Shown piece after piece: positions 36,601 through 39,600 of a stretch of 64,000 nucleotides of DNA; within the stretch, counting starts at the first letter, position 1; every line of letters starts with the position of its first letter. Source of the stretch: Hydrolagus affinis (Eukaryota); NCBI GenBank assembly GCA_012026655.1, contig JAAILG010001367.1:1-64000 (forward strand), written 5' to 3'. Position numbers: made by a program.

Positions 36601-39600
36601 CAACCCCCCCCCCCCACCACCGCTTCTGGATTTACAAACGGTACAAAACAAGCTTCTTGTGTAATATCTGTGTCAAGTTATAGGACTTTAAAAACAACAC
36701 ACGTACACCAGAAAACAATACCAACTCTCTTGCAAAGTTTTTGACACTCCATCATCTGAAGATAAAAGAAAACAAGAGCTGACTTGAATGAACGGAAAGG
36801 GAAGTAATTAATGCTCCGGGCTTTTCAACGGTTACTACAAAGACACGTTTGGAAGGAAACTTAATTCACCCACAGCGTCCCAAACACTGAAGGTCAGAAT
36901 GAAGTGAAGTAAATATAAAAACAGCTCCACCTGATAGCTGCTGACATAACAAGACAGCTCAGGACCAGGGCAAGCACAAAGCGGGGCTGCAATCCCCGCC
37001 AATCTTATCCGCGCGCGTGTAAATGTATAACTGCCAGCGGTTGTTCTCGTTCAAAGAGTACATCACACGCGGGGGAATTGCTTTGGGATTTTTTTTTTAC
37101 CAATCGCTGAACTTTATGAGAACTAAAGTGCTCGGGGTATCGCGGCCCGCGGTGAGGGGTAAACTCTGCAGCCCGATGACCACCACCGCCGCGGACACCA
37201 CTGTCGGCCCCTCCTCCGCCGCCGCCATTTTCTTTTCCAGTGATTTTTGCAGCTCGCTTCTCAGCAAACGTTTGAGCTCCGCGCGCCGGCGCCTCTGATT
37301 GGTCAAGGTTCAGCCTCAGCGGAGCCGTCGTACCCCTCACGCACGCACGCACGCGCATGATCGTTACACCAGAGGGAAGGCTCACAGTGGAAATCCTTAC
37401 ATCCATATATGGTCAGGGTCTGAGAGTAGCCACCCCCCCCACACAAACACAACATGGTCAGGGTCTGAGAGTAGCCCTCCGCCCCCCCTCCCTCACACAC
37501 ACACATATACATGGTCAGGGTCTGAGAGCAGCCCTCCCCCACACACACCACGCACACACGGAGCCCTCTGTAACACGACTACATCACCCTCGCCAGTCTC
37601 CACTGGCTCCCCGTCACCCAGAGGATCAAATTCAAGATCCTTCTTCTCACTTTCAAGGCCATTCACAGGCTTGCCCCCGCCCATCTCTCTGACCTACTGT
37701 CTCCCTATCAGCCTGCCCGCACCCTCCGTTCAGCAGACTCAGGCCTACTCCGCGTCCACCGCCCAACCATCGGTGGCCGGGCTTTCAGCCTCTGCTCCCA
37801 CACTGTGGAACTCCATCCCGCAGCCCCTCCTCCCTTTCCTCCTTCAAGGCCGTCTCAAAACCTTCCTCTTCGACTGCACCTTTGGCTCCCCCACTAACTC
37901 TTCCCCCCCCACCCCCCGCTTGGGTCCCAACCTGACTGTTCAACACTTTAGGAGGTCCTCCCGATGTGAAAGGCGCTATATAAGTGCAATTTTGTTATGT
38001 TGTTTAGCATCCTTATGTAAGGATTATTAGTGTAAAGTAGTAAAGCAGGTAAGCATTCTCCCAAGTTTACAGTTAATACTGATATTTACACTAATGTATA
38101 CTTACAATCATTGGGGGAAAGAAAGTCTGCATTTTAATTGTTTATTCTTTGGCCTCATCAGCCCATTTCACAACCTTTAAAAACAAATGGCAATAACTAA
38201 CACATTTGTTTACACTAGCATTACGAAAAGTTGCCAGTTGAAAACAATCCTTGGTAACATTTAAAAAAAAAATCCAGAGGTATCAGTGTGATCATTAAGG
38301 TACAGTACTGCTGACATCAAGAGGCAATACTCTGTTCACCCTGTGAATTCAGTACACTTTTTAAAAAAATCTGAAAACATCTACTGGCTCTACAGACAAT
38401 ATAAAAATTTACACAACTTCATTTTGGTACAGAAAGACCTACAGATCAATTAGTCTCTGCAGTCATGTTAGGTACACAGTTGTAAGTAGCACCAAAATGC
38501 TGAGATCAAGCCTGAGTGAGTCACTGTAAAATACATGTATTGCAAATGGTTCCTGAAAACTTGTAAGATTATGGCTAATTAGTTTTACACTCAAAATTAC
38601 CCACTCCCAGGGTTTAATGTTCAGTTGCATAGGGATAAAGTTTACTAGAAACACATAAGCAAAGAAATACAATAAGTAAACTTTACAGTTCATCTGAAAA
38701 TTAGTCTTAAAAGATTCAAGAGTTCACAATATAAACTAAGCTTCTAAGAGAAACTGGAACATTACTAGGAATCAGGATGCAGTGATTCCTTCCCATTCCA
38801 CAAGGTACTGCACTTTGCCATCCAGGGTCACTCGACGTGCTAAGATTCGATATTTTTCACCACAGGCAAGTCTTCCCGCAGCACCAAAATAGTTGGTTAT
38901 TGAAGATTTCAAATGATTTAGGTGCATGTCCTGATCATTGATATCTATGATTTCTGGGTCTAGTCCTTCACACTGACAATCATCCTTTTCTTCATTATCA
39001 TTTCCACTTTCTGAGGTCTGGGGCTGAAATGTTCTCGTCGAAGTGCGGCCTCGTCTCTTTTTTAAACGCTGCAGTGTTAATGGCCAAGATCTACCAGTGC
39101 GAGTTCTCCGTCTTGAACCAGAAAGTCTAAATTAAAATGAAGATTCACATTTCAACAATTTAAAAGCAATTAGACCAATGTAACATTCTAAAAAATATAG
39201 ACACAAGCAATGAAAGAATTTGATATAGGAAGACTGGAAAAGAAAACGCCACTTTATAGACTTCACAAGAAAATGAACCATCAACAAAATAGGACCAGGT
39301 GAATTGAGCAAGAAATACTTTCAGAAACGTGAAGTAAAAGTGATTATTCCTAGCTGTACTGAATACAATAAAACAAACAACCGCAGACCAACCTTTAATG
39401 CGGGTTGACAAATAAGCTATGGTAAGGATGTCAATGAACAATGATTTTGTTTCTTGTCCAAATTTTGACTTTAAAAAAAGCATTTTACTTTCAGTTTTGG
39501 ATTCAACCAAATTACGACTCCTTTTGTAATAAATGTTGTTCTTCCCCCCAAACACTGCAAAAAGAGCAAACTTCATTTTTGTTACTATTAATATTTATAC

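What the first reader, a model, noticed from the sequence alone, without database searches (positions are those of the whole stretch)
37300..38130. TMED5 is missing between CCDC18 and MTF2
In human, as I recall, the order is DIPK1A-MTF2-TMED5-CCDC18, with TMED5 head-to-head to CCDC18 on a shared promoter. Here only ~0.8 kb with no N gap separates the CCDC18 CpG island from the MTF2 polyA signal. That interval holds a minisatellite and an L2 fragment and has no GOLD/p24-like exons. Either this lineage lost or relocated TMED5, or TMED5 entered this locus later in bony vertebrates.
Basis: partly seen in the sequence, partly recalled or inferred. Interest (0 to 1): 0.65.

Follow-up and report, generated by a model that had tools for sequence, protein, structure and literature searches.

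The report
No TMED5 between chimaera MTF2 and CCDC18
In this chimaera-like fish genome the genes MTF2 and CCDC18 sit directly next to each other with no TMED5 between them, which is most likely an ordinary and probably older gene order, not a lost gene.

Summary
The window carries a complete CCDC18 (coding exons 34201 down to 14012, minus strand) and a complete MTF2 (48592 down to 38775, minus strand). A DIPK1A-type exon lies at 63095-63259 (+). About 0.83 kb without N separates the only CpG island (about 36.9-37.5 kb, upstream of CCDC18) from the MTF2 polyA signals (38133-38146). About 70% of that spacer is repeat: a short CACG run, a three-unit minisatellite and a 0.4 kb dispersed repeat. 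None of 821 six-frame ORFs across the 64 kb matched the p24/GOLD family.

Papers place TMED5 between MTF2 and CCDC18 in human. In teleosts they place it beside Pigc, Suco, Mysm1 and Oma1. Two Chinese sturgeon gene models run MTF2 straight into CCDC18. So direct MTF2-CCDC18 adjacency is probably the older jawed-vertebrate state, and TMED5 probably arrived later on the line to tetrapods.

I could not check whether TMED5 lies elsewhere in this genome, because no permitted query or vertebrate genome collection was available. Loss, or a chimaera-specific move, therefore remains possible. This is ordinary gene-order variation of low interest.

The parts
14012..34201 (-). CCDC18, all coding exons (start ATG 34201-34199; last coding exon ends near 14012)
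   Evidence: ORF 16670-17008(-) hits C. milii and Carcharodon carcharias CCDC18. tblastn of P0001 gives 30 colinear HSPs, aa 9-1589, at 72-100% identity. ATG and an acceptor-like 'tacag' just upstream were read.
36900..37500 (-). CpG island. Inferred CCDC18 promoter and non-coding first exon, about 2.9 kb upstream of the first coding exon.
   Evidence: CpG o/e 0.83-1.3 and 20-30 CpG per 300 bp. Promoter and exon-1 role is inferred from position and strand; no transcript data.
37295..37304 (-). CCAAT box (GACCAATCAG) at the upstream edge of the island
   Evidence: Single match in the window; 10 of 100 shuffles also give one match, so this is weak on its own. Function inferred.
37338..37354 (.). 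(CACG)4 microsatellite
   Evidence: TRF
37405..37559 (.). Minisatellite, three units of 45-57 bp
   Evidence: TRF period 57, 83% matches. Exact 18-mer at 37409, 37454 and 37511, none elsewhere in the window and 0 expected. Self-hit 37405-37445 against 37507-37547.
37585..37996 (+). 5'-truncated copy of a dispersed repeat (LINE/SINE 3' part; the 'L2' label is untested)
   Evidence: blastn copies at 50922-51192(-) and 60365-60480(+). Tail copies at 36122-36215(-), 6871-6936, 22187-22273, 20559-20598 and 2119-2152. Peptide-like frame 37574-37894.
38133..38146 (-). MTF2 polyadenylation signals (ATTAAA 38133-38138, AATAAA 38141-38146)
   Evidence: Motif positions; use as the real 3' end is inferred.
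38147..38774 (-). MTF2 3' UTR and stop codon (TGA 38772-38774)
   Evidence: lies between the last coding exon and the polyA signals.
38775..48592 (-). MTF2, all coding exons
   Evidence: Pfam: Mtf2_C 8.4e-28; PHD at 43538-43666 and 45159-45287; PHD at 46228-46368 and Tudor_2 at 48380-48625. Best homologues are C. milii MTF2 at 97-98% identity. tblastn of P0005 covers aa 1-599 in 14 HSPs.
57137..57236 (.). 100-N assembly gap between MTF2 and the DIPK1A-type gene (left untouched)
63095..63259 (+). Exon of a DIPK1A/FAM69-type gene, divergent from MTF2
   Evidence: PIP49_N, E 9.6e-18

Best explanation
Nothing is missing from this stretch. In this holocephalan (chimaera-type) genome MTF2 and CCDC18 are direct tandem neighbours on the same strand. 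The MTF2 polyA site lies about 0.8 kb upstream of the CpG-island promoter of CCDC18, and most of that spacer is later repeat insertion. This direct adjacency is probably the older jawed-vertebrate arrangement. TMED5 probably sits elsewhere in this genome; my prediction is beside SUCO, PIGC or MYSM1, as in teleosts. It was probably moved into the MTF2-CCDC18 spacer only on the line leading to tetrapods, where it now lies 35 bp from CCDC18 in human.

Shown: the gene content, strands, spacing and repeat make-up of the window, and the lack of p24 exons. Inferred: the promoter and polyA roles, the ancestral state, and the present whereabouts of TMED5.
For: Window evidence:
- 0 of 821 six-frame ORFs match EMP24_GP25L/GOLD. 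The same scans picked up exon-sized pieces of the flanking genes: Mtf2_C 8.4e-28, three PHD pieces at 2e-5 to 4e-4, Tudor_2 1.3e-8 and PIP49_N 9.6e-18.
- CCDC18 and MTF2 are each complete and colinear with C. milii proteins.
- About 584 of the 831 spacer bases are repeats.

Comparative evidence:
- Human order MTF2-TMED5-CCDC18 (PMC4143550 table).
- Teleost Tmed5 is grouped with Pigc, Suco, Mysm1 and Oma1 near Dnm3/miR-214 (PMC4177693 section 14). In trout PIGC, SUCO, TMED5 and MYSM1 are on chromosome 4 (PMC7059289 passages).
- The same fish paper lists a block shared by human, frog and fish (Mettl13, Vamp4, Myoc, Prrc2c, Pigc, Suco, Prdx6) that does not include Tmed5.
- Two A. sinensis gene models read from the MTF2 C-terminus straight into CCDC18 (P0050, P0049). 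Their MTF2 parts are mostly 94-98% identical to A. ruthenus MTF2 over the main aligned stretches, with shorter stretches at 82-89%. They carry Mtf2_C and no EMP24 domain.

Chimaera and ray-finned fish without TMED5 here, against mammals with it, needs one move under late entry. It needs two under ancestral presence.
Against: - TMED5 was not located anywhere in this genome, so loss cannot be told from a position elsewhere.
- No shark, skate, gar, coelacanth, amphibian or bird locus could be examined, so the polarity rests on three lineages.
- The sturgeon fusions show same-strand neighbourhood only. An opposite-strand gene inside the predicted 'intron' would not be seen. Both records also carry NCBI's 'UNVERIFIED_CONTAM' prefix.
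- A search with the fused model P0049 found no further fusions: 0 of 147 new representatives hit both reference proteins.
- The papers do not state that teleost mtf2 and ccdc18 are adjacent.
- ORFs under 40 aa outside 35.5-40 kb were not scanned.
- From recall only: TMED1 (19p13) and TMED5 (1p22) lie in the same paralogy group as the three Polycomb-like genes. That would fit an old linkage of a TMED gene with this region.
Confidence: 0.55

Rival explanations
1. The ancestral order was MTF2-TMED5-CCDC18, as in human. TMED5 was moved elsewhere in the holocephalan line, and independently in ray-finned fishes. The 0.8 kb spacer is what was left behind.
For: Human order. TMED5 is old: Xenopus has tmed5, and fly and yeast genes are placed in its row of the orthologue table (PMC7045115 passages). 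TMED1 is its closest relative, with 66% identity in the GOLD domain (bioRxiv 10.1101/2021.02.13.431076 passages). From recall only: the TMED1/TMED5 and PHF1/MTF2/PHF19 paralogues share a paralogy group.
Against: It needs two independent departures from the same spacer. No p24 relic is left in the spacer. Teleost and sturgeon data fit absence in ray-finned fishes.
Confidence: 0.27
2. TMED5 has been lost altogether in this lineage (chimaeras, or cartilaginous fishes at large), with TMED1 or other gamma-type p24 proteins covering its role.
For: No p24 exon in 64 kb of the locus where mammals keep the gene. Full-text searches for tmed5 with 'shark' and with 'cartilaginous' found no paper describing TMED5 in these fishes. 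A cited finding in one preprint says a TMED5 chimera carrying the TMED1 GOLD domain still transports GPI-anchored proteins.
Against: Absence from one locus says nothing about the rest of the genome. The gene is kept from teleosts to mammals. An empty literature search is not evidence of absence.
Confidence: 0.1
3. Assembly artefact: sequence holding TMED5 was collapsed or skipped between 37.3 and 38.1 kb.
For: The spacer holds a minisatellite, simple repeats and a dispersed repeat, which are places where assemblers can err. The scaffold has a gap 19 kb away.
Against: There is no N in the spacer. Both flanking genes are complete, in the expected relative orientation, and colinear with C. milii proteins. 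The nearest similar repeat copy (36122-36215) is inverted, not direct, so a simple collapse between direct repeats is not suggested. Sturgeon models point to the same adjacency in another assembly.
Confidence: 0.05

Closest known systems
Human 1p22.1 block FAM69A(DIPK1A)-MTF2-TMED5-CCDC18-DR1
   Same: A DIPK1A-type gene is divergent from MTF2. MTF2 and CCDC18 are on one strand, in the same relative order (against the table in PMC4143550).
   Different: Human has TMED5 (31 kb) between them, ending 35 bp from the CCDC18 start. Here there is 0.83 kb of mostly repeat and no p24 exon. No DR1-type histone-fold hit was seen in the 14 kb beyond CCDC18.
Teleost block Pigc-Tmed5-Suco-Mysm1-Oma1 beside Dnm3/miR-214
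   Same: It shows that TMED5 need not lie at the MTF2/CCDC18 locus in a jawed vertebrate (PMC4177693; PMC7059289).
   Different: None of those genes is in this window, so whether the chimaera TMED5 lies there is a prediction, not a result.
Acipenser sinensis fused gene models FKN15_020227 (P0050) and FKN15_057642 (P0049)
   Same: The MTF2 C-terminal exon is followed on the same strand by CCDC18 exons, as in the window.
   Different: They are annotation artefacts from another species. They show neighbourhood, not the absence of an opposite-strand gene between the two.
CpG-island bidirectional promoters (the human TMED5/CCDC18 type)
   Same: A CpG island with a CCAAT box lies upstream of CCDC18.
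   Different: No divergent protein-coding partner lies on the plus strand within the 0.8 kb before the MTF2 3' end.

Membership tests
p24/TMED gene (TMED5) in the interval or window | Exons encoding the GOLD/EMP24_GP25L domain (Pfam PF01105) | tested here: not met
   0 of 141 ORFs of 20 aa or more in 35.5-40 kb at E<=10. 0 of 680 ORFs of 40 aa or more elsewhere at E<=0.1 to 1.
p24/TMED gene (TMED5) in the interval or window | Signal peptide, coiled-coil, single transmembrane helix and COP-binding tail | not tested
   No candidate ORF was left to test. The plus-strand ORFs 37276-37692 and 37299-38030 read through the minisatellite and the dispersed repeat.
Conserved block DIPK1A-MTF2-TMED5-CCDC18 (human type) | MTF2 orthologue, not PHF1 or PHF19 | tested here: met
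   The 13 best hits of the last exon are cartilaginous-fish MTF2 at 87-98% identity. No listed name is PHF1 or PHF19. The full protein is colinear.
Conserved block DIPK1A-MTF2-TMED5-CCDC18 (human type) | CCDC18 orthologue on the same strand, downstream of MTF2 | tested here: met
Conserved block DIPK1A-MTF2-TMED5-CCDC18 (human type) | DIPK1A-type gene divergent from MTF2 | tested here: met
   PIP49_N exon at 63095-63259(+), E 9.6e-18. Orthology to DIPK1A, as opposed to DIPK1B or DIPK1C, was not tested.
Conserved block DIPK1A-MTF2-TMED5-CCDC18 (human type) | TMED5 on the opposite strand between MTF2 and CCDC18 | tested here: not met
Bidirectional CpG-island promoter | CpG island between two divergent genes whose starts are less than 1 kb apart | tested here: not met
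   The island is present, but there is no coding partner on the plus strand before the MTF2 3' end. A non-coding divergent transcript cannot be tested without RNA data.
Minisatellite | Head-to-tail units of 10 bp or more | tested here: met
   Three units of 45-57 bp
L2 LINE fragment | Similarity to an L2 consensus | not testable with these tools
   No repeat library is on hand. Dispersed copies in the window show it is an interspersed repeat. The Atlas search gave only unnamed chordate clusters.
Assembly collapse or misjoin | Gap, break in colinearity, or read evidence of missing sequence | tested here: inconclusive
   No N in the spacer and both neighbours are intact. Read-level support is not testable here.

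The most novel reading that the evidence does not exclude
Chimaeras, or cartilaginous fishes as a whole, have lost the p24-gamma-2 cargo receptor TMED5 outright. The tight MTF2-CCDC18 junction would then be the healed scar of that loss, or the gene was never retained after the vertebrate genome duplications. This would be a natural knockout of a Wnt and GPI-anchored-protein export factor in a whole vertebrate class.
Probability: 0.1. Interest if true: 0.45.

Novelty: new member of a known kind. Interest (0 to 1): 0.2.

Why it matters
Little rides on it. It is a case of gene-order difference between vertebrate lineages.

If the late-entry reading is right, the human TMED5/CCDC18 head-to-head pair (35 bp apart) would have arisen by a gene landing beside an existing CpG-island promoter. 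The chimaera would keep the empty site. That is a tidy but minor example for studies of how bidirectional promoters arise.

It also cautions against using the human order as the default for 'bony vertebrates'.

Only the unlikely outright loss of TMED5 would interest cell biologists.

Tried and rejected
I used stop-to-stop ORFs instead.
- One search gave no answer and was rerun.
- More fused MTF2-CCDC18 models as a stand-in for synteny. The CCDC18 homologue list had none among 120 listed. An exhaustive search with the sturgeon fused model P0049 gave 0 of 147 new representatives hitting both genes.
- Literature. tmed5+shark gave 3 papers, one of them a false hit on 'Sharkey'. tmed5+cartilaginous gave 3, none on TMED5 in these fishes. 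p24 family+TMED5+phylogenetic+vertebrates gave 2 papers holding the terms, 1 listed, and I did not open it. A six-term TMED/p24/elephant-shark search listed none that held both the TMED terms and 'elephant shark'. Gene-list papers with three or more of the block's genes were 15: two on livestock (pig, cattle), one mouse, one methods preprint, the rest human studies. tmed5+mysm1 gave 5 papers, nothing new. tmed5+mtf2+chicken gave 0.
- The Strating et al. 2009 overview of the vertebrate p24 family is not held. I recall its title only.
- Atlas search of the repeat's peptide-like frame gave only 'hypothetical protein' clusters.
- Rfam and ARAGORN found nothing in the spacer.
- I considered that the plus-strand ORFs of 138 and 243 aa over the spacer might be a gene, and rejected it. 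They read through the minisatellite and the dispersed repeat and have no family match.

Full report
**What the window is.** The 64 kb holds one N run (57137-57236) and no other masked sequence. I left the N run untouched.

An ORF at 16670-17008(-) matches CCDC18 of Callorhinchus milii (E 2.9e-28) and of Carcharodon carcharias. tblastn of the C. milii protein (P0001, 1589 aa) gives 30 colinear minus-strand matches. They cover aa 9-1589, run from 34168 down to 14012, and are 72-100% identical per piece. The white-shark protein matches the same exons at 38-75% identity.

The last exon of a Polycomb-like gene lies at 38775-39131(-), with Mtf2_C at E 8.4e-28. Its best relatives are C. milii MTF2 (97-98% identity) and then shark and ray MTF2 (87-92%). 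No listed name is PHF1 or PHF19. C. milii MTF2 (P0005) aligns over aa 1-599, from 48592 down to 38775, in 14 pieces. A FAM69/DIPK1-type exon lies at 63095-63259(+), with PIP49_N at E 9.6e-18.

The organism is therefore a holocephalan close to, but not the same as, C. milii. This is an inference from the identity levels.

I built no spliced model. Window exons were searched one ORF at a time, and reference proteins were aligned to the DNA. The joined step was left out.

**The interval.** The window's only CpG island lies at about 36.9-37.5 kb. That is 2.9 kb upstream of the CCDC18 start codon at 34201-34199. The start codon is preceded by an acceptor-like 'tacag'. A non-coding first exon in the island is therefore likely, but this is inferred.

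A CCAAT box (GACCAATCAG) sits at 37295-37304(-). It is weak evidence alone, because 10 of 100 shuffles also give one match.

Going right from there, the spacer holds:
- (CACG)4 at 37338-37354;
- a three-unit minisatellite at 37405-37559, whose exact 18-mer occurs at 37409, 37454 and 37511 and nowhere else, with 0 expected by chance;
- a 5'-truncated dispersed repeat at 37585-37996.

The dispersed repeat has longer copies at 50922-51192(-) and 60365-60480(+), and five tail copies elsewhere.

Minus-strand ATTAAA (38133-38138) and AATAAA (38141-38146) follow. They lie about 630 bases past the MTF2 stop codon at 38772-38774.

The 'L2' label could not be tested. From recall only, the peptide-like frame of the repeat looks like the widespread fish LINE/SINE 3' tail. 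Rfam and ARAGORN find nothing in the spacer.

**No p24 gene.** I scanned every stop-to-stop ORF of 20 aa or more in 35.5-40.0 kb (141 ORFs, E<=10). I also scanned every ORF of 40 aa or more in the rest of the window (680 ORFs) against Pfam. None of the 821 matched EMP24_GP25L/GOLD.

The method does see single exons. It found the Mtf2_C, Tudor and PIP49_N pieces and three PHD pieces of the flanking genes. The limits are that ORFs under 40 aa outside the central 4.5 kb were not scanned, and that ORFs touching the N run were skipped.

**Comparison with other vertebrates.**
- Human: a table in PMC4143550 lists FAM69A, MTF2, TMED5, CCDC18 and DR1 in that order. TMED5 ends 35 bp from the CCDC18 start (passage seen). 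Their head-to-head strands are from recall.
- Teleosts: PMC4177693 (section 14 read in full) names Pigc, Tmed5, Suco, Mysm1 and Oma1 as neighbours of miR-214/Dnm3. The block it reports as shared by human, frog and fish lacks Tmed5. PMC7059289 (passages) lists PIGC, SUCO, TMED5 and MYSM1 together on rainbow trout chromosome 4.
- Sturgeon: two Acipenser sinensis gene models in the homologue list are fusions. P0050 (1505 aa) reads MTF2, including its C-terminus, and then CCDC18 aa 137-1482. P0049 (691 aa) reads MTF2 and then CCDC18 aa 336-605. Their MTF2 parts are mostly 94-98% identical to A. ruthenus MTF2 over the main aligned stretches, with shorter stretches at 82-89%. They carry no EMP24 domain.
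- Cartilaginous fishes: MTF2 and CCDC18 sit on contigs of identical length in seven species (C. milii, Cetorhinus, Heptranchias, Carcharodon, Scyliorhinus torazame, Heterodontus, Rhincodon). This fits one chromosome but says nothing about adjacency.
- No further fused models turned up.

**Reading.** Chimaera and ray-finned fishes lack TMED5 at this spot, and mammals have it. One move into the spacer on the line to tetrapods explains this more simply than two independent departures. I hold this at about 0.55.

A chimaera-specific move from an ancestral human-like order stands at about 0.27. Outright loss stands at about 0.10, and an assembly error at about 0.05.

From recall only, human PIGC and SUCO lie at 1q24, MYSM1 and OMA1 at 1p32, and TMED5 at 1p22. 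That would fit rearrangement within one old chromosome.

**What stayed unchecked.**
- Whether TMED5 exists elsewhere in this genome or in any cartilaginous fish.
- Supplements and figures of the papers.
- The Strating et al. 2009 p24 overview (not held).

I found no paper on TMED5 in cartilaginous fishes. That is not evidence that none exists.

**Verdict.** It is best read as ordinary gene-order variation, with the chimaera probably keeping the older, TMED5-free junction. Interest is low.

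Noticed in passing
P0050 and P0049 (Acipenser sinensis records FKN15_020227 and FKN15_057642): Two public sturgeon gene models are chimeras of MTF2 and CCDC18, reading from the MTF2 C-terminus into internal CCDC18 exons. Both carry NCBI's 'UNVERIFIED_CONTAM' prefix, yet are mostly 94-98% identical to A. ruthenus MTF2.
   Followed up: yes
window 24700-25200: An AT-rich stretch (GC 0.29-0.39) inside a CCDC18 intron has a very high CpG o/e of 1.7-2.7. It is made of short tandem units: a 17-bp unit at 24952-25013 and an 8-bp TCGATATA-type unit at 25001-25085.
   Followed up: partly
window 53418-53489(-), 5262-5334(+), 1283-1352(-), 55454-55548(-): tRNA-like matches: Rfam tRNA at 36-51 bits, and ARAGORN tRNA-Ala and a long 'tRNA-Ile'. 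They are most likely heads of tRNA-derived SINEs, not tRNA genes.
   Followed up: no
window 36122-36215(-) and 37903-37996(+): Two 86% identical repeat tails lie in inverted orientation on either side of the CCDC18 CpG island, 1.7 kb apart.
   Followed up: no
window 48592-57137: No clear CpG island lies upstream of the MTF2 start codon. There are only modest CpG-rich patches at 49.7-50.4 kb and 55.8-56.3 kb, and part of the GC-rich 50-52 kb bin is a copy of the dispersed repeat at 50922-51192. The MTF2 and DIPK1A-type promoters were not located, and the 100-N gap lies in this stretch.
   Followed up: partly
window 1-14000: The 14 kb beyond the CCDC18 3' end shows no protein-family match, so DR1, the next gene in human, is not within this window.
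   Followed up: partly
window 14012-48592: Both genes are very compact compared with human: about 20 kb of coding span for CCDC18 and about 10 kb for MTF2, against 98 kb and 60 kb gene spans in the human table.
   Followed up: no
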